This document shows, in pieces, positions 24,501 to 53,618 of a DNA stretch of 64,000 nucleotides. The stretch is from Dehalococcoidia bacterium (lineage in GTDB: Bacteria; Chloroflexota; Dehalococcoidia; Bin125): NCBI GenBank assembly GCA_965215375.1, contig CBDCDO010000001.1:1120717-1184716 (forward strand), in the 5' to 3' direction. Below the pieces are notes generated by a model. The model did no database searches, was not told the DNA's origin, and saw nothing but the letters and a program-made list of their open reading frames with translations. The translations under genes and the position numbers were made by a program. Each line of letters starts with the position of its first letter. Position 1 is the stretch's first letter.

Positions 24501-24635
24501 CGCCAGGCCCAGCAGTGCGATGCTGAGTACGGCGGCGCCGAGAAATACGAGCCGAATACGAAGGCTCGCGACCGTGAGCGAGCGCGGTCCGATTGACATG
24601 TCCAGTCCTCCACCTGTCTTGCCATGTTCACTCAT
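15594..24635 (-). CDS. Giant Calx-beta repeat surface protein/adhesin (3013 aa) with cadherin-like and FN3-like domains and helical inserts
   Basis: Signal peptide (AEA-Q); many 'EG..F.V.LS..V...T.DGTA..G.DY..D..E..E.F.V.L..I.DDD' Calx-beta motifs; cadherin-like 'DASLFTIDPDTGVL..DFEYPADQGIDNTY'; start may be ATG 24599. Confidence 0.9.
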   Translation of the reverse strand: MSEHGKTGGGLDMSIGPRSLTVASLRIRLVFLGAAVLSIALLGLAAFTVLPPHAEAQGIQTDNIQVVVTPANLTLLEDPGARASFKFTLHSGTRQTAAITAKTIGGTAELFKDYGYPETSGGTLTRTKSGFQAKKDQTVDVHVPIRKDKLKEGDETFEVEFKIEGNGVTFGGGPSDPTVLKYKVTILDREPSTVSFESVQYLVEEGDGLEFKVNLEGNGKGTVEYKVRDTSTAEPITALGGGVVRGDYTTNDGLTGKLDFDGRKENGKSHTISFNTIKDSLVEGNDTIVLELFNATGDLSIAGSRTSTAIIENNDGELWADAPDVSVTEGGDAQLTVTLERALKREETVAFNAAVQGSQPNLVSACQSGQNDFAQKNVDYQTFEYVEYIMREGDRSVTIPVPTSPDDLHEDNECFYATLLASHGIKFRAQSDQTNRVIPNLLLSRITITDDDKMPELRYGHPEVAEPDPLWRENPTSDTAMLRYPVSLTSPSSRTVTVDYAHGGGGIDPTLNATSGEDFTPITPGTLTFMPGEMLKYVEVEIKGDFIEEPDERVYVKFSNAVNACLLPRCGPGSAISVRGTILNDDQNLTITIEPDDDRVREGEDIVFRAILSNPVPYPLSMSTISGLGGTATIGVDYKDTAFFGLGLTIEPGQTEGTLTVPTLADNVSGEGAETVILEFDRVLLGNSTIHALYGSKIFGQTLFPETAAARIPLSTAYILDGPVISVTAARESVGEGNSLDFHVALSEPTTQDVTFTVKSVDGAEGAEGAAIAAAGSDYTALTPKKVTIPAGQTDGGTFTIATHQDQVDEPNHKFTVLLEDVTGVTVDEEAAVGIIRDDDPRPTLSITDAEADEGDELRFLVTMSGATERTVTVNWVTEDGTAVHGLDYREVDRLQVVTFLPGVKEQSISVQTLTDNEPEAQESFRVQLTGAHGARVQTATAVGHITDDDGAVITIADAPTVTETAGDTAQATFTITMTPAQSTPVTIHWQTMDGTGGDDYVAKSGGLTADGEKDYTAVGRTAVTFAPGETVKQVSTNILDDTAAEMDENFSVVITTSNTDITLLRSTAYATIEDDDAYSIWIDDSTPTYVMEGDVNKRVTVKLKRTDASPIESQQDPRFHTHFTYIGCFITEIHDIWPLLAIPNVEDYRSTADVPGDVAYGKDRLPVCHNRGDGADFTLEMFEKEQYELSFDLTIMGDNRPEKNETFTFLLESTGFNHYSRWFLDPESRKFKYITMTIVDDDTPQVSISDISVDESVGSAELTLSLSEPASKHHTVLVSMEDGTAIAWQDYRPQFKHKVEFPAGATEATISVPIIDDAEEEGTETFTVVLSEPSDGLNVHPAGGVGTVTITESITDSRPRLIIRDQVVNEGDDVTLHFEFDPPIPDDTLWASKLYVYPENTWPLAEATAGVDYTSFDDSIELEVSPGDTSLTATISTTEDTIVENDEYIGISVEWHNSEELEPRFDGRTRGQPGGKLTLISIRDDDVHSVSLEPIAASTVEESSDWTITPALTAASDPAGDVTWSVEKEDASLFTIDPDTGVLALSAQDFEYPADQGIDNTYKTHVRVIDEDGNTATQGVQVTVTDIKFAEIDVSISRCCHADPNQRPYGAVEGEDIQVTLQPRFIQTTPVSLKWATAEDTKGANRADATDYTPSETPTAITWPEGTAGTTGSAQSFTISTTEDEQFEAAETFLLSFTEGMTGSTSEVTFNFQGAGASTVHLPGNTAVAVIAIGNDDYPTLSIEDGKAVEKNVVLFNVNLSDTPLEDVTFKWSTTDDTAAANATPPTGATAGTDYTAVTTAQIVTIPAGQRMAKVSVQTTDDAVEENDETFLVELSDPVGAVLSTGESTATGTIQDNDGNNNKPRVSISADSAWVEGGWVNFTIHLSEPLPETVKIPIDLQFITADESDCWDHNGTERCGPDLVPHKSMLGPGYAGIMDHSDILPPHPEKPWLVEVLAGETSGSGSIGVRNDTDDENERFRIVIDTTAAEWPTLKVKEGETTFAEIVIVDDATYAVASGWWDGLSQQARMRMVSDVAAGSDWEHLLSQSVSKPFAKMRAENRARAGALVGELVDAERSGAEKTVDLSTPENWWDDLDCRQRRIAVGEGVTEDKKSPWCRDWPDGGWARLPDPLKFTAMDIFEAIGLQTGAVGNVDDPMPQQSEPLSIPTTAVSNVQLATVDAASVSVSWDAVPHATSYIVSWDSVGSQNSNTGIVPSVTDTSATIQHNAQEAVTLTVTVTPEYVDGDGQTQTLTNLAGTATLSVGSDSAQAAEQTCDLPDDAITVAEITGWHDALDPTKAAAGIKRWNRVLAALGENTGETAMTAEQANAVSNWLKNTRWDRTARTLEALAQCDEPAPPHPPATPSTPEISIASNGEVTEGNAASFTITASPTPHAALTVTVNVSQSGDFGVTTGARTVTIPTSGSYTLTVATSDDSADEADGSVTATVNTGTGYTVSSSNGAATADVSDNDVPQISIASGGNITEGSNASFTITANPTPYAALSVSVNVSQTGDYGVTTGLRTVTIPTSGTYTLTVATSDDSADEADGSVTATLNTGTGYTVSSSNGAATAAVSDNDDPPAKQPEQSCNLPSDAISVAEITGWRDALDPSKAAAGIKRWNRVLAALGEDTGETAMTVEQANAVSNWLKNTRWDRTARTLEAWAKCDEPAPPPPPAKPATPPTPKVSIASNGDVNEGSAASFTITASPAPHAALTVTVNVSQSGDFGVTTGARTATIPTSGSYTLTVATSDDSTDETDGSVTVTLNTGTGYTVSSSNSAATAAVSDNDVPEISIASDGNITEGSNASFTITANPTPYAAQSVSVHVSRNGDYGVTTGTRTVTIPTSGSYTLSVATSDDSMDETDGSVTVTLNTVTGYTVSSSNSAATAAVADDDDPAPPAEVGISIAGASGQEGREVLFEVTLSQAVDHEVKVRWETGFDFNANHPALEAVEFWGMNGWLVFAPGETSKWAEVYLNDDQYTEPDETFLVKLSNPEGGSIVQGKATMTITDDD

Positions 24636-33913: not shown

Positions 33914-34735
33914 TCAGAACCGATCTTGGTAGGACCTTGACAGGGACTCCGAGGGGTCGGCCTGGATTCCTAGCGGTGGGATTGGGTAGCGCAGCCCGTT
34001 TCGGGAGAGCTTGTCGAGCCCGTCGAGGAGTTTGGGCAGGTAGCGCGGTGGGATTGCCATGAGCAGCTCGTCGTCCTGGACGCCGCCGAAGCGACGCTCG
34101 GCGTAGCAGGGAATGCTGAGCGATGGCTCGCCGGTGCGCAGGGCCCGACCCCAACTGTCGGCGCAGGCTGACTCGCCGACGGAGGCGAACTCGAACTTCT
34201 TAAAGCCTGAGAACTGGAGTCCGTTGATCAGGATGATCATCTGGCCGGGCGTGCCGTAGAGCAGCACGACGTCGGGTGGATCGAGTCGGCCGGTTGCGAT
34301 TGGGGAGAGCGCCAGTGCTCGGTAGCGGCCCGAGGGCAGCACGTCCATCGCTTGCTGATGGAGGATCGCGTCTTCGTCGGTCTCGAACCAGACGTTGGTC
34401 ATGGTCGTGCGGAGTCGCCATTCTCCGTCGTCTTCGTTGGGGTGCAGACCGACAGGCGCTCCACATTGGGCGCCGATCAGGTCGTCCATGGTTACGCCGA
34501 GGGTGAAGTTGAGCCATCGCGCTTGGGCGACGAGTTGGTCGAGGGCGTGCTTGAACTGCGGCCGGCGGATGCGCTCGATCTCTTGCATCTCCTCGACGGT
34601 CTCGAACATTTTCATCCCGACCGGCGTGGCGGTGAGGCGGAGATATCTCTGCAATCCAGCGACGATCTCGGGCCAGTCGTAGCTGTCGGGCTCGGGTGGT
34701 GCGTCGGCGGCGACGCCGACAGGAGCGGTGGTCAT
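33914..34735 (-). CDS. DUF169 family protein
   Basis: 'LRL.ATPVGMK', 'PDVVLLYGTPGQM', 'GESACADSWG', 'SIPCYAERRFGGVQDDEL'; ATG 34735 with GGAG RBS. Confidence 0.85.
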   Translation of the reverse strand: MTTAPVGVAADAPPEPDSYDWPEIVAGLQRYLRLTATPVGMKMFETVEEMQEIERIRRPQFKHALDQLVAQARWLNFTLGVTMDDLIGAQCGAPVGLHPNEDDGEWRLRTTMTNVWFETDEDAILHQQAMDVLPSGRYRALALSPIATGRLDPPDVVLLYGTPGQMIILINGLQFSGFKKFEFASVGESACADSWGRALRTGEPSLSIPCYAERRFGGVQDDELLMAIPPRYLPKLLDGLDKLSRNGLRYPIPPLGIQADPSESLSRSYQDRF

Positions 34736-40062: not shown

Positions 40063-40155
40063 CGTGGTTGCGGACGGGTTCGGCGCACGACATTGCCAGA
40101 GGTATTGAGCGGCAACCTCTATAATGTTGCGAAGTTTTCACTAAAGGAGTACCCG

Positions 40156-43100
40156 ATGCGCGATCGCGCCAGGTCCTCATTGTCTTCCGACCGCAGTCGA
40201 CGCGTCGGCGGCTTCACGCTGCTGTTGGCGGCGCTCGCAGCAGTCCTGATCCTCACCATGGGCGGCGAAGCTTGGGCAGCCCGGCAATCCGCGCCAACGC
40301 AACCGCAATCTGAGAGCCTATCCAGCAGCGGACTCGCGCTGGACGTTTCGGCCACACGTCTGCGCGTCGTCGAGGGTGGCTCGGCGGCGACGTATACGAT
40401 CCGTCCCAGCACGGTTCCTGTGCAGACGATCAGCATCGCCATCGGTAACCCGGATACGACGGCGTTCACCGTCTCGCCGCCCACGCTCAGTTTCAACACC
40501 AGCAACTGGCAAACCGCTCAACCGGTGACCATCACCCCGCTGCAGGATGACGATTCCGACCACGAAGTCGTCAGTCTCACCCATACCGCCTCTGGCTTTG
40601 CGGATCCCGATATCAAAGTATACGTCTCGGACGACGATGCGACTGATCCTCCGCCCGTTCCCGACGATGCTGGTGGCCTATACGGCACGCTGGCGCAAGC
40701 CTCGAAGGCACTCGTTAAGGTCAACGAAGGCCACTTCGAACACGTCGACACCTACACACTTCATCTGACATCTGATCCAGGACAGAACGTCACGCTCACC
40801 GTGAACAACCCTGCTCCGGAACAACTCGCAATCTCGCCCACTTCGCTTACGTTCACAGCAGGTGGAAGTGGTAACTGGAATGCTCCACAGACCGTGACAG
40901 TCACTGGTCAGTCTGACAGTGACAACCGGAACGATGGCCTCTACCCGCTGTACTTCATCCACAGCAGCGGCGCGTTCTTCGGCCCGCCGGTGCTGGTCCA
41001 CACACGAGACATTAGCGGCGTCGGTGACAATACCGTCGTCTATGGGATGGAATACGTCTACGTCACCGAACGCGGCGCGACAGCGACGTACAGCGTGCGC
41101 ATGGCTGGCGCCCCTGCGAATTACCTCCGCGTCAACATCTCCAGTACGATTCCTAAATCGGTGCTTGTCGAACCAGATACGGTGGACTTCGATCAAGCAA
41201 ACTGGGATGATCCACAGTTCATTACGATCACCGCGCGTGATGACCTCGACTCCATCAGCCAACGGGGCATGATTACGCACCGATATCAAGAGGCAAGCCA
41301 CACCAACTGGGACAACGTGATCATGTTCAGGGACGGCAAGTCGCTGCCGATCATCACCACAGACGGCTGGAGCGGAGACCCAATCTTCGAACAGAACGGC
41401 GATGCGATCGCTAACGTTCTCACCTACGATGGCAAGGAGCCCACCTACACGGTACGCCTCGCCAACGACCCTGAGCAGGACGTCACCCTGGACCTGCAAC
41501 ACGATGACAGGTTCACTGCCCATCCCAACCAACTCACCTTCACCGGCGGCTCAAGCGGCAACTGGGCCACACCGCAAACCGTCACCCTCCACGTTGGGTT
41601 AGACAGTGACACCGACAACGAAGAAATCGTAATCGATCACGTGTACGATGGCTTTGTCGAAGCGACACTGCCCGTGACGATCATCGACAGCGATCCGAAA
41701 TCAATGATCGTCTACGTCTATCCCAGCACCAGCACGATGAATGAGGGTGAGACCATTCAGTGCTACTTCGTAGCCCTGGCAGACGATCCCGGCGGCGAAG
41801 TCACGATGACGCTGACCTCCTCTTTGCCGGGCTCGCTGACGATTTCGCCCACGACGTTGACATTCAACAGCGACAACTATCGGGATATGCAGCCGATCAC
41901 CCTCACCGCCGTCGAGGATATCAACGCCAACGACGAAACCGTTGCTATCCTCCACGAGCTGCCCGGATACCGCCAGGTCACCCTGAGCATCGACATCACA
42001 GACAATGACCCAGGCGGCATTACGATTGCACCGCGTAACGAATTCACCCTTCCGGAAGGGCCCGGCAACTACTCGTATCGCGTCCACTTGACGCGAGACC
42101 CTGGCGTCGGCAAGACAGTCGCCGTTGAGCGCAGTGGCAATACAGGCGGCATAACGTTCTACACTGCCAACCTTTACGGGAGACTCACATTCACCGGTGG
42201 CCCCGATGGCACATGGGCCATCCCTCAGAGATACGATTTCGGCGTCGATCGAGACTCTGACAACGTCGACAACACATATGTCGCCACACATACCACGACC
42301 ATTGATGGCTTCACTAGCAACAGCGACGTGATCCTGCACGTAGTTGAGACTCATCCCAACACTCGCCAGCGCGCACGCCCCGTCGTGTACACCGGCGCGG
42401 ACATGATCGTCGAAATCCCCGAGCCAGTCGACTGCGAGGACGACCCCGACCACGAAGATTGCGAAGAGCCCGATCCCAACCACTTCCCGCTGCCGACGGT
42501 CGCACCGTCACGGCTCCACGTCGTCGAAGGCAGTTCAGCTCGCAGCTACAGCGTCTTCTTCACAGAAGATCCGATGACAGACATCACGGTCACCATCACC
42601 ACAGAAAGCGCCAATTCAACGCTCGCTAGTTGGTCGGTCGCACCGTTGACGTTAACCTTTACCGGCGGTGAGAACGGCAACTGGCAGACCCCACAGTGGG
42701 TCGCCGTCAGCGGGGTCGCCGATAGTGATACCGACGACGATCTGCTCACTATCGTTCACCGAGCGACTAGCTACGCCCAGGATGGCACCGTAGCCCGCCA
42801 GGAGTATGGCGACTCGGTCATTGCCAACCTGTATGACAACAACACTGACGCGGTAACCATCAGCGACATCGCGCTCGCCATCAGGGAAGGAGCAACGGCG
42901 ACGTACACAGTCTCGCTGGCAAGCGACCCCGGAGGAACCGCAACCGTTACTCCGACAAGCAGCAATACTACCTCCGTGACAATCTCTCCCGCTTTGCTCA
43001 CATTTACATCATCCGATTGGATGAGCCCCCAAACGGTAACGGTACAAGCAGTACAGGATCCCGATGGCGACCACGAGACCGCTACCATTTCGCACACCGT

Positions 43101-46100
43101 TTCTGGCTACACCACGGCGACACCACCTGCCAGTGTGAGCGTCGATGTCACCGATGACGAAGCTCCGACAGTCAGCGTCACGCCCGGCAGCGCCGTCACT
43201 GAAGGCGCGGCTGCTAGCTTCACAGTCTCCGCAAGCCCAGCGCAGACATCACCCTTGTCGGTATCCATCACCGTCGCCCAGAACGGAGAATACGCCGCTG
43301 ATGCCGATATCGGTACAAAGACTGTCAGCATTCCGACTAGTGGCAACCTGATGTATACCGTCGATACCACGGCCGACGATCAGGACGAACCCGATGGTGA
43401 CATTACGGTCACCTTGAACGCCGGCGACCCCTACACAGTGTCTCCGACCGAAGGAACAGCCATGGTAGCGGTCTCGGACGATGATGATCCACCTGAATGC
43501 ACGGTCCAGTTGCCTTCCGACGCCATTACGGTCGCCGAGGTCAAGGTATGGCGGGACGAATTCACAGCTTCAACCCATGTCCTGCGTTGGAACAAGGTGC
43601 TCGCGGCCCTAGGTGAGAGTACTGGCGAGTCGGCCATGACTGCCGCCGAGTCTCGGGACATTAAGAGTAGGATCAACAATAGTCGCTGGGATCGCACGAC
43701 CCGCACGTTAGAGGCAATGGCCAAGTGCGGCACGACACCGCCAGTGATACCTGAGCTGTCGATTACCGCGGGTAGCGACGTTGCGGAGGGTAGTGATGCA
43801 ATCTTCACAATCACAGCGACTCCGGCTCCTACGAAGACTCTACTCGTGTGGCTTTCCATCGCTGAGGTAGGTGATTTCAACGTCGATCCAAGCGGGGTGT
43901 ACTCCGTCAACATGACGACCAGCGGGTCATACACGTTGGAGTTGGAAACGACAGGTGACAATGTCAATGAAGCCGATGGCTCAGCTAAGGTGGCAATCAG
44001 TGCCCGCCCAACGTACACCGTCTCGACAACTGCTGGTGCGGCTACCGTCGCGATTGCTGACGACGATGTGCCTGAGATCAGTATTGCATCTGTCTCCGAC
44101 ATCATTGAGGGCGCTAATGCGATGTTCACCCTTACTGCGATTCCGGCTCCAGCGATTCCGCTGGCTGTCGAAGTGGAAGTGACGCAGAGCGCCGACTTCG
44201 GTGCGGCCACTGGCATGCATACAGTGACAATCCCGACATCGGGCACCAAGACGTTCCAGGTCGCCACAAACGATGACCGTGCCGACGATGCGGACGGTCC
44301 AGTTACTGTCACTATCAGCACTGGCACAGGCTATACAGTGTCCGCCGGCTCTGGTTCCGCAGAGGTAAACGTGTCTGACAACGACCCTCCCGCGGGTACC
44401 TCTATCATTAGTATTGTTGCCGGGTCTGATATCAAGGAGGGTGCCGACGCAACGTTCACGGTCACTGCCAATCCTCCACCGTCTGCCGACTTGGCGGTCT
44501 CGGTAACTATCTCCCAAACGGGCGAGTTTGTTGCGGCAACAGGTTCCCAGACCTTCACTATCCCGCCGACCGGCACGTACATGTTCACGGTCGCGATCGA
44601 CGACGATGACGTGTACGAAGAGGATGGCTCCGTTACGGTGACGGTCGGCACCAACACCAATAACCCAGGTTCCTATGCTGCATCGCCCACGGATAGTTCG
44701 GCAACGGTGCAAGTGTCTGACGACGAAAAGTCTAACCCCTGCGTGCAGGTTGTGACGGCTAGTGGCACCATCGAAGCGCAATGGACGAGCAGGTGCGATT
44801 CTCATGCCCGCTGGCAGCGCTATAGTCAGTTCTACACGTTCGAAGTCTCCCAGGAGAGCAAGATTACCATTGACTTGGTATCGGTCGCCGATCCCTACCT
44901 GTATCTGCGTGCAGGGCAAGGCACAGACCGAGGCGCATCGGTAGAAACCAACGACGACGGCGGTCCTGGCAGGAATGCGCGAATCGTGAGACAGCTCGAT
45001 GCTGGATGGTACACGATCGAAGCAACCACATACTATCGACGTGCTGAGGACAAGTTCCAACTTACGATCGGTGGACTGCCGACTGCGACATCGCCGAAAG
45101 CGCAGCAGGCGCAAACTACTGAACCAGAGATTACGATCGTCGCTGGTGCCGATGTCACTGAAGGCAGCGACGCGACCTTCACGATCACGGCGTCTCCGAC
45201 TCCGGCGGTAGACCTTGACGTGACAATTGCAGTCACACAAAGCGGCGATTACGTCACGACGGGCCCTCACACGGTGACGATCCCTACTTCCGGTAGCCGG
45301 ACCCTCACGATATCCACAACGAATGATAGCGATGACGAACCTGATGGCTCGGTCACGGCGACCTTGTCTACGGGTCCGGGTTACACCGTCTCGGGAACGA
45401 GTAATGCTGCGACCGTTGGGGTTTCGGATGATGATGATCCTCCCGTTGTTACTCCAGTGACTAGTATTACGGCCGACAATGGGATTACTGAGGGCGGGAA
45501 TGCCAGCTTTACCGTGACGGCGAGCCCCAATCCGACCTCGGTGCTCACCGTAACATTGGCAATCTCGCAGAATGGTAGCTTTGGTGTTTCGATTGGCTCT
45601 CGGACGATTACAGTTCCCACAACTGGTAGCATCACATTCACCGTTGCTACAACGGACGACAGTACTGACGAGCCTGATGGCTCGGTCACGGCGACGATTA
45701 GTAGTGGTACCGGGTACACGGTGTCGCAGACTTCTGGTGCGGCCAGCGTTGCGATCTCGGACGACGATGATACTTGTACTCCCACCTTGCCGTCGGACGC
45801 TGTTACTATCTCAGAGATTACCGGCTGGCGCGATGCGCTCAGCAATGCTGCTGGGATCAAGCGATTCAATCGTGTGCTGGCAACGCTTGGTGTGGACACC
45901 GGCGAAACTGCAATGCCTGCGGAGCTTGCCCAACAAGTCGCGGATTGGCTCGGCAACACGCGCTGGGATCGCATTGCGCGCACACTAGCGGCAATGGAGC
46001 AGTCGCAATGCGAAGCGCCGCCCACCGAGCCCGAGATTAGTATCACCGCTGGCAGCGGGATTACTGAGGGTGGGAACGCTAGCTTTACCGTGACGGCGAG

Positions 46101-47370
46101 TCCGAATCCGACTTCGGCGTTGACCGTCAATGTGACGATTTCGCAGAGTGGTAACTTTGGTGCGACTACTGGTTCTCGGACGGTCACTATTCCGACGACT
46201 GGCAGCAGAACCTTCACCGTTGGTACGATGAACGACAGTGTTGACGAGCCTGATGGATCCGTTACGGCGACGTTGTCCACGGGTACGGGTTACACTGTGT
46301 CGGGAACGAGCAATGCGGCGACGGTTGCGGTGTCTGATGATGATGATCCGCCCGCTGTTACTCCAGTGATTAGCATTGCGGCTGGCAGCGGGATTACTGA
46401 GGGTGGGAACGCTAGCTTTACCGTGACGGCGAATCCGAATCCGACCTCGGCGTTGACCGTCAATGTGACGATTTCGCAGAGTGGTAGCTTTGTTGCGACT
46501 ATTGGATCTCGGACGGTCACTATTCCGGCGACTGGTAGCAGATCGTTCACCGTTGGTACGACGAACGACAGTGTTGACGAGCCTGATGGTTCGGTCACGG
46601 CGACGTTGTCCACGGGAACGGGTTACACTGTGTCGGGAACGGGCAATGCGGCGACTGTTGCGGTTTCGGATGATGATCCTCCCGCTGTTACTCCAGTGAT
46701 TAGCATTGCGGCTGGCAGCGGGATTACTGAGGGTGGGTACGCTAGCTTTACCGTGACGGCGAGTCCGAACCCGACCTCGGCGTTGACCGTCAATGTGACA
46801 ATCTCGCAGAGTGGTAGCTTTGCTGCGACTACTGGATCTCGGACAGTCACTATTCCGACGACTGGCAGCAAAACGTTTACCGTTGGTACGACGAACGACA
46901 GTACTGACGAGTCTGACGGTTCTGTGACGGCGACTCTGAATGCTGGCACGGGTTACACCGTGTCGGGTTCGAGCAATGCTGCGACGGTGGCCGTTTCGGA
47001 TGATGACGATGCACCGCCACCTCCTCTGACGACCGGTCCGCCGACGGTGAGCGTGAGCGATGCTTCCGCAAGTGAAGGAACGGGACGCGTGCCCTTCGTC
47101 ATTAGACTTTCGCACGCGCACTCGAGGAGCATCACGTTCCGATATGGCGGGTTTGGCCAGAACGCAGGACTGGGGCAAGACTTCCACATCGTGTACGAAG
47201 CGTATACGCTTGCCGCGGGTGATACGGAAATCGAGATTGGTGTACCAATTGTCGATGATACTGAGGTGGAATCGGATGAGACGTTCAGAGTGTACTTCTA
47301 TGCTAGGAGCGGAATCACGATCCCAGGATACTTCCTCTATGTGGATGGCACGATCATTGACGATGACTAG
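40156..47370 (+). CDS. Giant Calx-beta-like repeat surface protein (~2400 aa) with a PPC-like domain and helical inserts
   Basis: AAGGAG RBS, ATG 40156, signal peptide (AWA); repeats 'EG..ATYTV.L..P..LTF..NW.TPQTVT'; PPC-like 'YTFEV..ITIDL..DPYLYL..NDDGG..NARI..LDAGWYTIEAT'; terminal Calx-beta. Confidence 0.9.
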   Translation: MRDRARSSLSSDRSRRVGGFTLLLAALAAVLILTMGGEAWAARQSAPTQPQSESLSSSGLALDVSATRLRVVEGGSAATYTIRPSTVPVQTISIAIGNPDTTAFTVSPPTLSFNTSNWQTAQPVTITPLQDDDSDHEVVSLTHTASGFADPDIKVYVSDDDATDPPPVPDDAGGLYGTLAQASKALVKVNEGHFEHVDTYTLHLTSDPGQNVTLTVNNPAPEQLAISPTSLTFTAGGSGNWNAPQTVTVTGQSDSDNRNDGLYPLYFIHSSGAFFGPPVLVHTRDISGVGDNTVVYGMEYVYVTERGATATYSVRMAGAPANYLRVNISSTIPKSVLVEPDTVDFDQANWDDPQFITITARDDLDSISQRGMITHRYQEASHTNWDNVIMFRDGKSLPIITTDGWSGDPIFEQNGDAIANVLTYDGKEPTYTVRLANDPEQDVTLDLQHDDRFTAHPNQLTFTGGSSGNWATPQTVTLHVGLDSDTDNEEIVIDHVYDGFVEATLPVTIIDSDPKSMIVYVYPSTSTMNEGETIQCYFVALADDPGGEVTMTLTSSLPGSLTISPTTLTFNSDNYRDMQPITLTAVEDINANDETVAILHELPGYRQVTLSIDITDNDPGGITIAPRNEFTLPEGPGNYSYRVHLTRDPGVGKTVAVERSGNTGGITFYTANLYGRLTFTGGPDGTWAIPQRYDFGVDRDSDNVDNTYVATHTTTIDGFTSNSDVILHVVETHPNTRQRARPVVYTGADMIVEIPEPVDCEDDPDHEDCEEPDPNHFPLPTVAPSRLHVVEGSSARSYSVFFTEDPMTDITVTITTESANSTLASWSVAPLTLTFTGGENGNWQTPQWVAVSGVADSDTDDDLLTIVHRATSYAQDGTVARQEYGDSVIANLYDNNTDAVTISDIALAIREGATATYTVSLASDPGGTATVTPTSSNTTSVTISPALLTFTSSDWMSPQTVTVQAVQDPDGDHETATISHTVSGYTTATPPASVSVDVTDDEAPTVSVTPGSAVTEGAAASFTVSASPAQTSPLSVSITVAQNGEYAADADIGTKTVSIPTSGNLMYTVDTTADDQDEPDGDITVTLNAGDPYTVSPTEGTAMVAVSDDDDPPECTVQLPSDAITVAEVKVWRDEFTASTHVLRWNKVLAALGESTGESAMTAAESRDIKSRINNSRWDRTTRTLEAMAKCGTTPPVIPELSITAGSDVAEGSDAIFTITATPAPTKTLLVWLSIAEVGDFNVDPSGVYSVNMTTSGSYTLELETTGDNVNEADGSAKVAISARPTYTVSTTAGAATVAIADDDVPEISIASVSDIIEGANAMFTLTAIPAPAIPLAVEVEVTQSADFGAATGMHTVTIPTSGTKTFQVATNDDRADDADGPVTVTISTGTGYTVSAGSGSAEVNVSDNDPPAGTSIISIVAGSDIKEGADATFTVTANPPPSADLAVSVTISQTGEFVAATGSQTFTIPPTGTYMFTVAIDDDDVYEEDGSVTVTVGTNTNNPGSYAASPTDSSATVQVSDDEKSNPCVQVVTASGTIEAQWTSRCDSHARWQRYSQFYTFEVSQESKITIDLVSVADPYLYLRAGQGTDRGASVETNDDGGPGRNARIVRQLDAGWYTIEATTYYRRAEDKFQLTIGGLPTATSPKAQQAQTTEPEITIVAGADVTEGSDATFTITASPTPAVDLDVTIAVTQSGDYVTTGPHTVTIPTSGSRTLTISTTNDSDDEPDGSVTATLSTGPGYTVSGTSNAATVGVSDDDDPPVVTPVTSITADNGITEGGNASFTVTASPNPTSVLTVTLAISQNGSFGVSIGSRTITVPTTGSITFTVATTDDSTDEPDGSVTATISSGTGYTVSQTSGAASVAISDDDDTCTPTLPSDAVTISEITGWRDALSNAAGIKRFNRVLATLGVDTGETAMPAELAQQVADWLGNTRWDRIARTLAAMEQSQCEAPPTEPEISITAGSGITEGGNASFTVTASPNPTSALTVNVTISQSGNFGATTGSRTVTIPTTGSRTFTVGTMNDSVDEPDGSVTATLSTGTGYTVSGTSNAATVAVSDDDDPPAVTPVISIAAGSGITEGGNASFTVTANPNPTSALTVNVTISQSGSFVATIGSRTVTIPATGSRSFTVGTTNDSVDEPDGSVTATLSTGTGYTVSGTGNAATVAVSDDDPPAVTPVISIAAGSGITEGGYASFTVTASPNPTSALTVNVTISQSGSFAATTGSRTVTIPTTGSKTFTVGTTNDSTDESDGSVTATLNAGTGYTVSGSSNAATVAVSDDDDAPPPPLTTGPPTVSVSDASASEGTGRVPFVIRLSHAHSRSITFRYGGFGQNAGLGQDFHIVYEAYTLAAGDTEIEIGVPIVDDTEVESDETFRVYFYARSGITIPGYFLYVDGTIIDDD
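46030..47010 (+). repeat. Three near-identical ~330-bp intragenic tandem repeats
   Basis: 'ISI.AGSGITEGG.ASFTVTA.PNPTSALTVNVTISQSG.F.AT.GSRTVTIP' repeated with DNA-level identity; more diverged copies at ~45120-45770. Confidence 0.9.
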
Positions 47371-48711: not shown

Positions 48712-49839
48712 ATGTCGGAGCGACGCACGGGATGGGTGTATCACGAGTCGTACATGTGGCACGACACTGGCCGCACGCGGGCGTTCGACCCGGTGCTGCG
48801 ACGGTGGATGCAGGCCTGGGAACACTGGGAGAATCCCGACACCAAGCGGCGGTGGAACAATCTGCTGGAGGTCTCGGATTTCTCGGAGCAGCTTGTCCAG
48901 CTCAAGCCGCGCTCGGCGAACTTGGAGCAGGTGCTGCGATTCCACACACCCGATTATGTCGACCGCGTGCGGGAGTTGTCGGCGGTCGACGGCGGTGACG
49001 CGGGCGAAGGGGCGCCGTTCTCGCACGGGGGCTACGAGATTGCGTTGCTCTCGGCCGGCGGCACGATCACGGCGGTTGATGCTGTGCTCGATGGCGATGT
49101 CGACAACGCGTATGCGCTCGTTCGTCCGCCTGGGCATCATGCCGAGCGTGACCGGGGTCGGGGATTTTGTGTGTTTGGCAATGTCGCAATTGCGGCCATG
49201 CACGCGCTGGCAGAACGTGGCATCGACCGAGTGGCGACGCTCGATTGGGATGTCCATCACGGCAATGGCACGCAGCAAGCGTTCTACGAGCGCAGCGATG
49301 TGCTGACGATGTCGATTCATCAGGATCAGTGGTATCCGCGCGACAGTGGTCGGATGGAGGAACGCGGCGAGGGAGCGGGCGAGGGCTACAACATCAACAT
49401 CCCGCTGCCGCCGGGAAGCGGTCATGGCGCGTATGTGGAGACGATCCGACAGGTGGTCGTGCCGGCAATGCAGGTGTTTCAGCCTGACTTGATTCTGGTG
49501 CCGTCGGGGTTTGATGGCAGTATGTATGACCCGTTGGGTCGGATGATGGCGTACTCGGAGACGTTCCGCGAGATGACTCGGCTTCTCATGGAGGCGGCGG
49601 ATGAGTTGTGCTCGGGACGGCTGGTACTGAGTCATGAGGGCGGGTACAGCCCGACGTATGTGCCGTTTTGTGGGCTCGCGGTGGTCGAGGAGCTGAGCGG
49701 GAGGCGGTCGATCGCTGGCGATCCGTTCGAGGACAACTCGGCGACGGCTGGCGGTCAGGAGATTCAGCCGCATCAACAGTCGGTGCTCGACGATGCGAAG
49801 TCGCTGGTGGACGATCTGCGTCGGCTTGAGGGGGTGTGA
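48712..49839 (+). CDS. Class II histone deacetylase-family amidohydrolase
   Basis: 'RPPGHHA', 'GFCVFGN', 'DWDVHHGNGTQ', 'GFD..DPLG', 'HEGGY'; AAGGA RBS. Confidence 0.95.
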   Translation: MSERRTGWVYHESYMWHDTGRTRAFDPVLRRWMQAWEHWENPDTKRRWNNLLEVSDFSEQLVQLKPRSANLEQVLRFHTPDYVDRVRELSAVDGGDAGEGAPFSHGGYEIALLSAGGTITAVDAVLDGDVDNAYALVRPPGHHAERDRGRGFCVFGNVAIAAMHALAERGIDRVATLDWDVHHGNGTQQAFYERSDVLTMSIHQDQWYPRDSGRMEERGEGAGEGYNINIPLPPGSGHGAYVETIRQVVVPAMQVFQPDLILVPSGFDGSMYDPLGRMMAYSETFREMTRLLMEAADELCSGRLVLSHEGGYSPTYVPFCGLAVVEELSGRRSIAGDPFEDNSATAGGQEIQPHQQSVLDDAKSLVDDLRRLEGV

Positions 49840-49909
49840 GCGGTTGGTGGGGATGCGCCTTGGGGAGGCCTTCACCCTAACCCTCTCCCAGAAGGAGAGG
49901 GGATCAGAT

Positions 49910-50511
49910 TGGTGCTCAGTCATGAGGGAGCATGCAGCCCGACGTTTGTGCCGTTCTGTGGGTTCGCGGTAGTGGAGGAGCTGAGGGGGAACCGGTCCAT
50001 CGCTGGCGATCCGTTCGAGGACAACTCGGCGACGGCTGGCGGTCAGAAGATTCAGCCGCATCAGCAGTCGGTGCTCGACGATGCGAAGTCGCTGGTGGAT
50101 GTTCTGCGTCGGCTTGAGGGGGTGTGAGGGGTTGGTAGGGATGAGGCTGGGAGAGGCCCTCACCCCCCGCTTACGCGGGGGCAGGCTCTCACCCTCTCCC
50201 AGAGGGAAAGGGGATCAGATTGGTGCTGAGTCATGAGGGCGGGTACAGCCCGACGTATGTGCCGTTTTGTGGGCTCGCGGTGGTCGAGGAGCTGAGGGGG
50301 AACCGGTCCATCGCTGGCGATCCGTTCGAGGACAACTCGGCGACGGCTGGCGGTCAGGAGATTCAGCCGCATCAACAGTCGGTGCTCGACGATGCGAAGT
50401 CGCTGGTGGATGATCTGCGTCGGCTTGAGGGGGTGTGAGGGGTTGGTGAGGCTGCGGCTGGGGGAGGCCCTCACCCTAACCCTCTCCCAGAGGGAGAGGG
50501 GATCAGATTGG
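49910..50511 (+). repeat. Two extra tandem copies of the deacetylase 3' end (72 codons), each followed by REP-C
   Basis: Units start at 49622 (in gene), 49910 and 50221; each ends in 'ccctctccc..ggggatcagattgg'. Confidence 0.95.
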
Positions 50512-50654: not shown

Positions 50655-52016
50655 TTAGAGCTCAAAGAGGGTGATTGTGTCGTTGGGGGCCAACTGGTCC
50701 CCGGTTGGCTCGGCTCAACAGAACCAGTCTTCGGTGAGGCCGGGTCGGTGGACGTGGGGTGCGGGGACGTCGGGCCAAGGTTCGGCTTCGAGGAGTCGGC
50801 AGGCTGTGGCTTTGATTTGCGGGAACGATGCTTGTTGCTCTGCGAGGCGTGCGATCTCAGCTTGGAGAGTGTCCATCCGAGGTTCGGCGTGGCGCCAGTT
50901 CCAGGTGAGGCCGTCGGGATCGTAAGTCGTGAGCGCGCCCATGTCTCGCATTGGCTGGACGAGCGGCGAATCGGACGGTGCGAGGAGGCGGAGGCCGAGC
51001 TGCACCGGCGGGGTGAGGTCGACGAGCCGGCGGGTCTCGATGAACTGGAGCAGGTCGAGGAGATCGCCCGCTGAGGTCCAGGGCGTGAAGGGAAGCCAGG
51101 TCGGGCGGAGCGCGATTCCCACTCGTTCGGTGAGATCGAGGACGCGGTCGAGGTCGGCGGCGGTGTGTCCCTTGTCCAGAATGTCGAGGAGCTGGTTGTC
51201 GACCGACTCGAACGCTGAGGTGATGAAGGTGACGCCGCGTTCGGCGATTTCGGGCAGAAGCGCCTGGTGCTCCAGCAGGTGCTCGACTTTGATGGTCGCG
51301 TCGAAGGTGAGCTGGGGGTGCGATGCCGATGCTCGGCGGAGCAGGTGCATTGCGAGATCGGGCGCGTTGAGGAAGTCTGGATCGCCGAAGGTGATGTGTT
51401 CCGCGCCGGCTTCGACTTGCTGGTCGATGTCGGCGAGGACGGTCTCGGCGCCGTTGAGACGCAGTCGTCCGGCGTAGATCGGCGTGAGGGGGCAGTGGGT
51501 GCATCGGTGCGCGCAGCCGCGTGTGGATTCGACGTATCCGGCAAGATGCGCGGCGCCGCTCGGGTCGCGGTACTGGGCGTACTGGTCGAGCGGGGGCAGC
51601 AGCGAGCGGTCGGGAACGAGTCGCGCCTCGCGGTCGAAGTGGGGCACGTCCGCGGCGGTCGCGCCATTCGCGACTTGGACGAGTTGGAGGTCGGTGTCGC
51701 CGCTGATGGTGCGTCCGAGACCGAGGTCACCAAGCGAGTTTGCGGCGAGTCCGTAGAAAACGATCTTGTCGCGGTGGTCGTGGAGCTGTCGGGCGATGCG
51801 GATGCCGAGTCGGGCGGCAGTGTGCATCGGCGTGGAGATGGCGACGAGGTCAGCGTCGGAGGCGGCAGCCGCGAGGTGGTCCGAGCTGACTGACTGGACT
51901 GCGAGGTCGAAGGCTGAGACGTGGTGTCCAGCGTCGACCAGGGCAGCGGTCGGAGCGGCGACGCCAAGCGGCTGGTGTCCTTGCTCATAGGTGGATATCA
52001 GGAGGACGCGCGCCAT
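50655..52016 (-). CDS. CUAEP/CCAEP-tail B12-binding-like radical SAM selenoprotein (UGA 50715-50717 = Sec; 453 aa)
   Basis: 'STRGCAHRCTHCP' CxxxCxxC; readthrough gives ..TEDWFC-U-AEPTGDQLAPNDTITLFEL-TAA; hairpin just 3' of the UGA. Confidence 0.88.
50689..50709 (-). promoter_or_regulatory. Candidate bacterial SECIS hairpin
   Basis: GCCAAC-C-GG-GGA-CC-A-GTTGGC starting 5 nt after the UGA. Confidence 0.55.
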
Positions 52017-52087
52017 GATCTCAGGGTATCGCTAAGGTCGGGTGAGGTTGGGTCTGTGGGGGGATCTCGCGGGGCACTTGGCGTTCT

Positions 52088-52960
52088 CGTCATACCCGCG
52101 CTTGTCGCGGGTATCTCGCTGAGGGCAGCACCGGTGTCGACGGGTCCAGGTGAGCACGTCGGCCTTGCACTACGGATCGAGATTCCCGCGGCGGAGGGCG
52201 GGTATGACGGAGGTGTGTCGCGGCATCGGGCCGAGCGGGTCCCCGATTAAGTCGGGGACGGGGAATGGGGTGAATCTCCCGTGGCGAGGCGGTCTCAGCT
52301 GATTGGCTCGTCTGCGAGGTCGAAGGCTGAGATGTGGTGGTCAGCGTCGATCAGGGCAGCGGTCGGAGCGGCGATGGCGAGCGGCGGGGGCTATGAGTTA
52401 TTCGTCATACCCGCGCTTGTCGCGGGTATCTCGCTGAGGCCAGCACCAGGGTCGATGCGTCCGTGTGAGCGCGTCGGCCTTGCTCGACGGATCGAGATTC
52501 CCGCGGCGGTGCGCGGGTATGACGGAGGTGTGTCGCGGCTTCGGGCCGCGCAGGTCCTCGATCAAGTCGGGGACGGGGAATGGGGTGAGTTTCCCGCGGC
52601 GAGGCGGTCTGAGCTGACTGACCGGACTGCGAGATCGAAGGCTGAGACCTGGTGGCCGGCGTCGATCAGGGCAGCGGTCGGAGCGGCGATGGCGAGCGGC
52701 GGGGGCTCCGAGTTGTTCGTCCTACCCGCGCTTGTCGTGGGTATTTCGCTGAGGACAGCACCGGTGTCGATGCGCCTTGGTGAGCACGTCGGCCTTGCAC
52801 TACGGATCGAGATTCCCGCGGCGGTACGCGGGTATGACGGGGTTGTGGCGGAGCAGGGGAATGACGGAGGTGTGGCTCGGTATGGGGCCGAGCGGGTCCC
52901 CGATCACGTCGGGGACTGGAAACAGGGGCGGGATTCCCGCAGCGGAGTGCGGGGATGACG
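52088..52960. repeat. ~315-bp tandem composite repeat: REP-A pair + REP-B + captured fragment of the radical SAM gene
   Basis: Fragment 51871-51972 recurs at ~52283-52385 and ~52598-52700 between REP blocks. Confidence 0.92.
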
Positions 52961-53009: not shown

Positions 53010-53618
53010 CTATTTCTTTGAGGGTTTGTAGTAGGGGTTGTCGCCGGATTGGTGGTCGGTGATGTCGATGAGTTCGTCGATCTCGGGGAGTTGTTCCTTG
53101 ACCGCGACCTCGATGCCTTGCTTGAGCGTGACGTTGGCCATGCCACAGCCTTGGCATCCGCCACCCATTTCGATGTAGGCCTTGCTGCCCCGCACTTCGA
53201 GGAGCTGCACGTAGCCTCCGTGAGCGGCGATTTGGGGATTGACCTGCTCGTCGAAGATGGCCTGAATTCTGTGTGCGATGGGGTCGCGCCAGACGGGGTT
53301 CGGGTTGTGGAACTCGAGACCGGAGACGTTGGGGCCTTTGAACTCGTAGTGGACCGCGGTGCCGCGCAGGTCGTCGATTCGGTCGCCCTCGATGTAGAGA
53401 CGGAAGTCTGGATACTCGGCCGTGGCGTCGCCGTCGGGCTCGAAACCCTTTTCGACGATGGTGAGCACGTGCTCGAAACCCTCGGACGTTTTGCCGGTGA
53501 TCTTGAGTCGGAGTCCGGCGACTTCCTCGGGATAACCGGTCAAGACCTCGACCAATTTCGAGCGTGCGACGTCTGAGAAGGTGATACCGAGTTCGCCAAT
53601 TTTCGTGTCGGTGGTCAT
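53010..53618 (-). CDS. nfuA: Fe-S cluster biogenesis protein NfuA
   Basis: Degenerate A-type N-domain ('GLRL.I', 'F.NPN') plus NifU-C 'VNPQIAAHGG..MGGGCQGC..TLKQGIE..DITDH.SGDNPYY'. Confidence 0.92.
   Translation of the reverse strand: MTTDTKIGELGITFSDVARSKLVEVLTGYPEEVAGLRLKITGKTSEGFEHVLTIVEKGFEPDGDATAEYPDFRLYIEGDRIDDLRGTAVHYEFKGPNVSGLEFHNPNPVWRDPIAHRIQAIFDEQVNPQIAAHGGYVQLLEVRGSKAYIEMGGGCQGCGMANVTLKQGIEVAVKEQLPEIDELIDITDHQSGDNPYYKPSKK

What the first reader, a model, noticed from the sequence alone, without database searches (positions are those of the whole stretch)
50655..52016. Hidden selenoprotein: radical SAM enzyme with a C-U-A-E-P tail
Seen: the ORF track stops at WFC-TGA, but the frame continues GCC GAG CCA (AEP) for 19 codons to TAA, with a G-loop hairpin 5 nt after the UGA. 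Known: a CUAEP/CCAEP-tail radical SAM family exists in which this position is Sec or Cys; it is related to the Cys-tailed arsenic enzyme ArsL and, as far as I know, its function is uncharacterised. Inference: a vicinal Cys-Sec pair binds a metal(loid) substrate. nfuA lies just upstream on the same strand and arsC is in the window.
Basis: partly seen in the sequence, partly recalled or inferred. Interest (0 to 1): 0.72.

Follow-up and report, generated by a model that had tools for sequence, protein, structure and literature searches.

The report
Selenocysteine-tailed radical SAM enzyme
A stop-like codon near the end of this bacterial iron-sulfur enzyme gene is very likely read as selenocysteine, making it one more example of a catalogued but still uncharacterised relative of the arsenic-antibiotic enzyme ArsL, which almost always occurs together with an amino-acid ligase and likely makes a small molecule that nobody has identified.

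Summary
Confirmed: the frame 52016-50655 (-) reads WFC-UGA-AEP plus 16 codons to TAA. Read-through as selenocysteine is well supported: selA, selB, selD and tRNA-Sec are present; the site is TGA in 60 and Cys in 21 of 81 homologues; codons +1 to +4 show 55 synonymous, 0 replacement differences in 35 close relatives. The protein matches NF040546 end to end, 30 bits under cut-off; that family is in print as uncharacterised. An L-amino-acid ligase co-occurs in 81 of 83 genomes, but lies 218 kb away here. The arsenic hint fails: no ars gene in 160 loci, no arsM or acr3 in this genome. Best mechanism (0.35): ArsL-like aminocarboxypropyl transfer onto a tail-held sulfur or selenium atom, then ligation; arsenic acceptor 0.2. 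ArsL clusters also carry a ligase (4 of 5). This scan noted the same module before in at least 12 other genomes. Known kind, open function.

The parts
50655..52016 (-). Radical SAM gene, 453 aa when the internal UGA is read as Sec; N-terminal Rossmann-like domain, radical SAM core, C-U-A-E-P tail
   Evidence: AlphaFold model pLDDT 95.6
50715..50717 (-). In-frame TGA, codon 434, inferred selenocysteine, next to Cys433
   Evidence: TGA in 60, TGY in 21 of 81 sequences; one TGA in 12 of 12 same-genus genomes searched
50655..50714 (-). 19 codons after the UGA and the true stop TAA (50657-50655); only the first 10 codons are conserved
50686..50702 (-). Likely bacterial SECIS: GGGGACC-AGUU-GGCCCC, loop AGUU at 50695-50692, 19 nt after the UGA; family consensus is a 7-bp stem with loop AGUUN
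   Evidence: consensus model in PMC13188914
51492..51515 (-). CxxxCxxC cluster-binding motif (C168 A H R C172 T H C175)
   Evidence: invariant in 71 of 71 aligned CUAEP rows
51762..52004 (-). N-terminal Rossmann-like domain with a weak B12-binding match (29.1 bits, cut-off 32.1); cobalamin binding not shown
   Evidence: PMC12931638 says AprD4 and ArsL homologues do not bind cobalamin
53010..53618 (-). nfuA-like Fe-S carrier gene, conserved upstream partner
52087..52927 (.). Three 315-nt tandem units between nfuA and the radical SAM gene, holding genome-wide palindromic repeats and two decayed copies of the radical SAM 5' region; lineage-specific, not part of the module

Best explanation
The gene at 52016-50655 (-) encodes a 453-residue radical SAM enzyme whose internal UGA is very likely read as selenocysteine, giving a Cys-Sec tail that likely holds an acceptor atom onto which the enzyme would transfer the aminocarboxypropyl (ACP) group of SAM as ArsL does, after which a co-inherited L-amino-acid ligase would likely join the product to a second amino acid. 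Steps: (1) SelB binds the hairpin at 50702-50686 and Sec enters codon 434 (machinery, codon alternation, tail selection and hairpin covariation shown; insertion itself inferred, about 0.97). (2) NfuA loads or repairs the [4Fe-4S] cluster on C168/C172/C175 (motif and gene linkage shown; role inferred). (3) The reduced cluster cleaves the C-gamma-S bond of SAM to give methylthioadenosine and ACP (inferred from ArsL only, about 0.55). (4) The vicinal Cys-Sec pair, at the place of ArsL's Cys-Cys but without ArsL's third Cys, presents the acceptor; I commit to sulfur or selenium, giving a homocysteine- or methionine-like amino acid, because the module sits with Fe-S upkeep genes and never with ars genes (inferred). 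(5) The ATP-grasp ligase (here at G000:C1:951963-953183, invariant Cys293 six residues after the catalytic-motif Arg) forms a dipeptide that serves Fe-S or soft-metal homeostasis (genetic link shown, about 0.9; reaction inferred).
For: Sec: tRNA-Sec, selA, selB, selD over their cut-offs in this 97.9% complete genome; selA matched in 29 of 29 genomes with the TGA form and 17 of 21 with the Cys form, 50 of 80 loci's genomes searched; at least 6 Sec/Cys switches on a 53-row tree built without the site; hairpin 83.3% paired, covariation 0.288, 0 of 500 shuffles in TGA forms against 45.7%, 268 of 500 in Cys forms, repeated in two further sets: 78% vs 53% (15 and 15 loci) and 86% vs 49% (44 and 31 matches); CAGU..G in 60 of 60 TGA and 2 of 21 Cys forms; Leu after Gln is TTR in 47 of 47 TGA forms, 1 of 11 Cys forms, 15% genome-wide. 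ArsL kinship: NF040542 250 bits, next family 43; 47 of 88 family-conserved positions identical in 3 of 3 ArsL proteins, and the CC pairs align. ArsL chemistry: ACP transfer, tail needed for product (10.1101/2024.02.01.577332); ACP also captured by sulfur from dithionite. Ligase link: 81 of 83 Chloroflexota genomes with the enzyme hold the ligase, 20 of 218 without; adjacent in 51 of 80 and 38 of 80 loci from several phyla; one fused protein, P0085; nearest solved relative BL00235 by profile and fold (E 1e-66; TM 0.85), which makes Met-Gly and Met-Met (PMC6920838); ArsL itself sits with an ATP-grasp ligase in 4 of 5 plasmid loci inspected. Fe-S context: nfuA or yggX in 54 of 80 and 33 of 80 loci.
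Against: No residue known to decide ACP versus 5'-dA cleavage was found in the papers read, so step 3 is analogy at 32-34% identity; 16 conserved positions are fixed differently in ArsL. The nearest solved folds are OxsB and AprD4, not ACP transferases. No sulfur- or selenium-delivery gene is a regular neighbour (single cases only: a class-V aminotransferase beside Fe-S assembly genes in L077, ThiF-rhodanese in cluster c46). 20 of 101 genomes hold the ligase with no radical SAM match, and 19 of those 20 keep nfuA or yggX beside the ligase, so NfuA is not there only to serve this enzyme and the ligase can be kept without it. BL00235 is only 25% identical and its Pro85 position is not conserved in the ligase family (Pro in 6 of 28). 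The ArsL-linked ligases are 22% identical to this ligase and lack its Cys. In this genome the ligase lies 218 kb from the enzyme. The fusion is a single sequence on one contig.
Confidence: 0.35

Rival explanations
1. Arsenic version: the Cys-Sec pair binds As(III) or methylarsenite, the enzyme makes hydroxyarsinothricin or arsinothricin as ArsL does, and the ligase caps it as a peptide (detoxification or a pro-antibiotic).
For: ArsL is the only characterised close relative; ArsL accepts methylated arsenic and a variant named MCCA was the most efficient on methylarsenate (PMC13598754; I read the name as Cys-Cys-Ala, which is my inference), so two ligands may suffice; ArsL clusters in Priestia, Alicyclobacillus and Pantoea also carry an ATP-grasp ligase; one homologue is fused to a MerB-like domain (P0015, single contig); Haft and Gwadz link CU motifs to heavy-metal binding.
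Against: ArsL binds arsenite with three cysteines (10.64898/2026.04.29.721666) and this family has two. arsM, arsC and 15 proteins from ArsL clusters match 0 of 160 loci, whereas 5 of 5 ArsL loci hold ars genes. arsM is in 35 of 83 genomes with the enzyme and 134 of 218 without. This genome has no arsM over cut-off, no acr3, no arsB or arsQ match.
Confidence: 0.2
2. Canonical radical SAM chemistry: the enzyme makes the 5'-deoxyadenosyl radical for an unknown organic or protein substrate, and the Cys-Sec tail is a redox or metal shuttle (as in the tails of thioredoxin reductase or MerA, recalled), working with the ligase in an Fe-S-related pathway.
For: Nearly all CxxxCxxC enzymes do this; nearest solved folds are OxsB and AprD4; family-specific motifs PMHTA, GDPDF, KVEH, KGH differ from ArsL; neighbours are Fe-S genes.
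Against: The family is far closer to ArsL than to any canonical family (250 vs 43 bits); its CC aligns with ArsL's substrate-binding CC; both branches pair with an amino-acid ligase, which fits an amino-acid product.
Confidence: 0.3
3. The UGA is an ordinary stop and the protein ends at WFC (433 aa).
For: The hairpin in this one sequence is not more stable than shuffles; public collections list many homologues ending in WFC or WYC; no RNA or protein data were available.
Against: 55 synonymous and 0 replacement differences at codons +1 to +4 in 35 relatives; Cys codons at the same site in 21 of 81; hairpin covariation limited to TGA forms; full Sec machinery.
Confidence: 0.02

Closest known systems
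CUAEP/CCAEP-tail radical SAM (seleno)protein, NCBIfam NF040546 (named as uncharacterised in 10.1101/2022.07.06.499078)
   Same: Match over profile positions 1-467 of 468, E 7e-141; CxxxCxHCP motif; WFC-U-AEP tail; Sec/Cys alternation.
   Different: 470 bits against a curated cut-off of 500; two genus relatives also fall short (459, 486) while a relative outside the genus passes (578). Family-conserved His221 (68 of 74) is Leu here.
ArsL, RCCLKC-tail radical SAM of arsinothricin biosynthesis, NCBIfam NF040542
   Same: Same two-domain layout, 32-34% identity, C-terminal vicinal pair at the aligned place, 47 of 88 conserved positions shared; 4 of 5 ArsL loci inspected also carry an ATP-grasp ligase.
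   Different: 250 bits against cut-off 450; no third tail Cys; Sec in place of the second Cys; no arsM, arsQ, arsN1 or ArsR context; whether ArsL arose inside the CUAEP family is unresolved (AU p 0.374).
L-amino acid ligase BL00235 (PDB 3VOT), for the partner ligase
   Same: Best profile and fold match of the partner (E 1e-66, TM 0.85); ATP-grasp_4 plus LAL_C2 domains.
   Different: 25% identity; the partner family has an invariant Cys in R-x-I-G-G-x-C (28 of 28) that BL00235 lacks; substrates untested.
AprD4 and OxsB (solved radical SAM structures)
   Same: Top Foldseek matches of the model, TM 0.63-0.67; N-terminal Rossmann-like domain plus radical SAM core.
   Different: 14-16% identity; no Cys-Sec tail; different chemistry.

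Membership tests
Bacterial selenoprotein | In-frame UGA aligned with Cys in homologues, homology continuing past it | tested here: met
Bacterial selenoprotein | selA, selB, selC, selD in the genome | tested here: met
Bacterial selenoprotein | SECIS: G in the first two loop positions, 16-37 nt after UGA, at most -7.5 kcal/mol | tested here: met
   loop AGUU at 19 nt, -9.8 kcal/mol; covariation; model from PMC13188914. bSECISearch itself was not available.
Bacterial selenoprotein | Selenium shown in the protein | not testable with these tools
   needs MS or 75Se
NF040546 CUAEP/CCAEP-tail radical SAM | Radical SAM core with CxxxCxxC | tested here: met
NF040546 CUAEP/CCAEP-tail radical SAM | C-U/C-A-E-P tail and full-length match, best family | tested here: met
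NF040546 CUAEP/CCAEP-tail radical SAM | Curated score of 500 bits | tested here: not met
   470.1 bits; so filed as a sub-threshold orthologue of the same kind, not as a formal member
ArsL (NF040542) | RCCLKC tail with three As-binding cysteines | tested here: not met
ArsL (NF040542) | Curated score of 450 bits | tested here: not met
   249.9 bits
ArsL (NF040542) | ars gene context (arsM, exporter, ArsR) | tested here: not met
ArsL (NF040542) | SAM cleaved to methylthioadenosine and ACP; C-As bond formed | not testable with these tools
   needs an enzyme assay
Cobalamin-dependent radical SAM | B12-binding domain that binds cobalamin | tested here: inconclusive
   PF02310 29.1 bits under cut-off 32.1; PMC12931638 says ArsL homologues and AprD4 do not bind cobalamin

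The most novel reading that the evidence does not exclude
The CUAEP enzymes are the widespread, arsenic-independent kin of ArsL: selenoenzymes that put SAM's aminocarboxypropyl group on a sulfur or selenium atom held by a Cys-Sec tail, and with their Cys-bearing ligase make an undescribed small thiol or selenol peptide that stands in for glutathione in Fe-S upkeep across Chloroflexota, Acidobacteriota and Actinomycetota; arsinothricin clusters that carry a ligase would be the arsenic offshoot and would make arsinothricin peptides.
Probability: 0.2. Interest if true: 0.85.

Novelty: new member of a known kind. Interest (0 to 1): 0.45.

Why it matters
The protein kind is curated and in print, so the selenoprotein call is not new, and this scan has noted the enzyme-ligase-NfuA module in at least 12 other genomes. 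It still marks an open question: a gene in 83 of 301 Chloroflexota genomes sampled and in several other phyla has no known reaction, and its only characterised relative does rare ACP-radical chemistry. Natural Cys-Cys homologues make the assay simple. This genus scores under the curated cut-off and is cut at the UGA by standard gene callers, so it is missed twice by automatic annotation.

Tried and rejected
arsC as context: rejected. Sec in the ligase: the motif Cys was TGY in 110 of 110 and 31 of 31 motif hits; not found here. BL00235 Pro85 as a shared methionine-pocket residue: not conserved. 'ArsL arose inside the CUAEP family': suggested by two quick trees (sister to the CCAEP protein P0110) but CUAEP monophyly is not rejected (p-AU 0.374), with very distant outgroups; the careful tree did not finish. 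Solved-structure search by sequence gave only weak MiaB hits. The model's coordinates cannot be read here, so the tail's distance to the cluster is unknown (tail residues 421-440 have pLDDT 86-89). No RNA holder listed; DNA contigs of related strains cover the gene but say nothing on expression. Promoter and terminator scan: nothing on the minus strand. yggX: no match in this genome. Thermomicrobium roseum plasmid copy has none of the partner genes within 7 kb. Literature search on YggX and glutathione gave a listing only; the YggX-glutathione overlap is recalled, not read.

Full report
Observation. The ORF 50715..52016 (-) is 433 codons and ends TEDWFC-TGA. Read with TGA=U it is 453 residues, ending WFC-U-AEPTGDQLAPNDTITLFEL and TAA at 50657-50655. 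The window lies in a 3.39-Mb, 97.9% complete genome (G000:C1:1120717-1184716); its closest homologues are 70-81% identical and come from Dehalococcoidia/Chloroflexota records.

Is the UGA selenocysteine? The genome has tRNA-Sec(UCA) and selA, selB and selD over their curated cut-offs; selD itself has an in-frame TGA in RCGG-U-GSK. Of 257 confirmed relatives in the genome collection the best 80 were fetched; with the window, 60 of 81 have TGA and 21 a Cys codon at the site, and all continue with A/S-E-P. In 35 close relatives, codons +1 to +4 show 55 synonymous and 0 replacement differences from the window, codons +1 to +10 show 87 and 18, and alignment is lost after +10. A 53-row tree built without the site needs 6 Sec/Cys changes. 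selA was searched in 50 of the 80 source genomes (all 21 Cys forms, 29 of 59 TGA forms): matched in 29 of 29 TGA genomes (one partial, under cut-off) and 17 of 21 Cys genomes; these are incomplete, related genomes, so this is consistent rather than decisive. All 12 same-genus genomes searched carry the gene with one TGA.

The SECIS. Aligned without gaps, the TGA forms support a stem at positions 16-22/28-34 with loop AGUUN: 83.3% of cells paired, 6 of 7 pairs with changes on both sides, covariation 0.288, 0 of 500 shuffles, and every slid control lower; RNAalifold picks the same register. In the Cys forms the same pairs are at chance (45.7%, 268 of 500). CAGU..G is present in 60 of 60 TGA and 2 of 21 Cys forms, and the Leu codon after Gln is TTR in 47 of 47 TGA forms against 1 of 11 Cys forms and 15% genome-wide. 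Two further sets repeat the contrast: the 30 best-scoring loci of the phylum search (78% vs 53% paired, 15 each) and the best 80 of 372 metagenome loci found with a distant query (44 TGA, 30 Cys, 6 without tail; 86% vs 49%).

What the protein is. NF040546 (CUAEP/CCAEP-tail radical SAM) matches end to end at 470 bits, cut-off 500; ArsL NF040542 at 250, cut-off 450; the next family at 43. Two genus relatives also fall short (459, 486) and one outside the genus passes (578), so I file it as a sub-threshold orthologue. The family is named once in the library, as uncharacterised (10.1101/2022.07.06.499078, passages); a 2026 review of prokaryotic selenoproteins does not contain CUAEP, CCAEP or NF040546 in its main text. 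The model is confident (pLDDT 95.6; residues 421-440 at 86-89) and its nearest solved folds are OxsB and AprD4. The N-terminal domain has only a sub-threshold B12-binding match, and PMC12931638 (passages) states that AprD4 and ArsL homologues do not bind cobalamin. Of 88 positions conserved in at least 80% of 74 CUAEP rows, 47 are identical in 3 of 3 ArsL proteins and 16 are fixed differently; the tail CC aligns with ArsL's CC. Quick trees place ArsL next to a CCAEP protein, but CUAEP monophyly is not rejected.

What ArsL does. It cleaves SAM to methylthioadenosine and an ACP species and needs its RCCLKC tail to form hydroxyarsinothricin (10.1101/2024.02.01.577332, whole main text); all three tail cysteines bind arsenite and an Fe-ACP intermediate forms (10.64898/2026.04.29.721666, parts 1-3 of 5); it also takes methylated arsenic, and the MCCA variant was the most efficient (PMC13598754, passages). 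arsQML is an arsenite-induced operon (PMC8552651, passages). The supplements of the bioRxiv papers, which hold ArsL alignments, were not seen.

Partners. Genes were called with a hexamer model of my own and clustered. By tblastn, nfuA is in 53 of 80 and 11 of 80 loci, an ATP-grasp L-amino-acid ligase in 51 and 38, yggX in 1 and 22, DUF169 in 7 and 4 (many metagenome contigs are short). The first set is dominated by one genus, but the ligase is adjacent in Chloroflexota, Actinomycetota and other lineages in changing order and orientation. In 301 Chloroflexota genomes at least 90% complete, 83 have the enzyme, 101 the ligase, 81 both (kin are not independent; G313 among them is unpublished). Of the 20 ligase-only genomes, 18 keep nfuA and 1 yggX beside the ligase, and one has an enzyme fragment at a contig end. 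In this genome the ligase (89% identical to that of L007) has moved with an MFS gene and a copA-like gene to C1:951963-953183, 218 kb away. Its nearest solved relative is BL00235, which makes Met-Gly and Met-Met (PMC6920838, passages), and it has an invariant Cys293 (28 of 28). One protein fuses ligase and enzyme (P0085) and one adds a MerB-like domain (P0015); each is a single sequence on one contig, so both are weak.

Arsenic test. arsM and the window's arsC match 0 of 160 loci, as do 15 proteins taken from ArsL clusters. arsM is in 35 of 83 genomes with the enzyme and 134 of 218 without. This genome has no arsM over cut-off, no acr3, arsB, arsQ or arsH match; its arsC-like gene is under cut-off and sits beside potassium-transport-like genes (that naming of the neighbours is from their sequence, not a family call). 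As a positive control, 5 of 5 ArsL loci inspected, out of 36 plasmid records with an ArsL-type match, hold ars genes, and 4 of the 5 also hold an ATP-grasp gene (two of the four are Priestia). Those ligases are 34-64% identical to each other, 22% to this ligase, score 81-138 bits on its profile against 229 for BL00235, and lack the motif Cys. So pairing with a ligase is shared by both branches, though not with the same ligase family.

Mechanism. Shown: sequence, Sec signals, family kinship, genetic linkage to ligase and Fe-S helpers, lack of ars linkage. Inferred: Sec insertion (0.97), a shared pathway with the ligase (0.9), ACP-type SAM cleavage (0.55), and the acceptor. I commit to a sulfur or selenium acceptor held by the Cys-Sec pair, giving a homocysteine- or methionine-like amino acid that the ligase turns into a dipeptide for Fe-S or soft-metal homeostasis (0.35 for the whole route). 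That lineages can lose the enzyme yet keep ligase plus NfuA fits a ligase substrate that cells can also get elsewhere, but this is an argument, not a test. Rivals: canonical radical chemistry with a redox tail (0.3), an arsenic acceptor (0.2), UGA as stop (0.02); the rest is unassigned.

Verdict. Real selenoprotein signal, known kind, unknown reaction. The same module was noted by this scan in at least 12 other genomes; I had found nfuA and the ligase before reading those notes. Interest 0.45.

Noticed in passing
L254:3738-4961, L255:2436-3668, L257:7572-8777, L258:2483-3706: ArsL (RCCLKC) clusters of Priestia, Alicyclobacillus and Pantoea plasmids carry an ATP-grasp amino-acid ligase and a small CMD-like protein ending in Cys-Cys; this hints at arsinothricin-containing peptides. 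One search found no paper on it.
   Followed up: partly
window 52087-52927 and 49622-50511: Tandem duplications flank the gene: three 315-nt units upstream with two decayed copies of the enzyme's 5' region, and three ~300-nt copies of the 3' end of the neighbouring deacetylase-like gene downstream. Both contain short palindromic repeats with 63-115 matches in the genome; related strains skip one unit. nfuA-to-enzyme spacing is 993 nt here and at most 130 nt in 33 of 45 related loci.
   Followed up: partly
G000:C1:949906-955495 (L087:5907-11508): MFS gene, ligase and copA-like ATPase form a block that lies just downstream of the enzyme in close relatives and has moved 218 kb in this genome.
   Followed up: yes
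L149-L168: 20 Chloroflexota genomes hold the ligase without a match to the enzyme; 19 keep nfuA or yggX next to it, so ligase plus Fe-S helper may be the tighter unit.
   Followed up: partly
G000:C1:8179, 1478069, 1478997, 1479746, 560065, 791943, 1610193; C2:400664, 1025047, 1026155: Other in-frame TGA candidates from a crude genome scan: four U-x-x-C thioredoxin-like, one TY-U-QGG, two U-G-S-C, one GG-U-MYG, two CFY-U-T. Not validated.
   Followed up: no
P0015, P0085, P0110: A CCAEP enzyme fused to a MerB-like domain; one fused to the ligase; and a CCAEP-tail protein (7 cluster members) that scores 363 bits on NF040546 and 333 on ArsL and may be an intermediate.
   Followed up: partly
window 51354-51356 (codon 221): His221, conserved in 68 of 74 family rows, is Leu in this protein and in many genus relatives.
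   Followed up: no
window 33914-34735; G000:C1:1355471-1356172: A DUF169 gene lies in the window, but the copy closest to the DUF169 found beside the enzyme in other phyla (56% to L065's) is elsewhere on the contig.
   Followed up: partly
window 15594-24635 and 40093-47370: Two very long ORFs (3013 and 2425 aa); the second has repeated surface-protein-like units.
   Followed up: no
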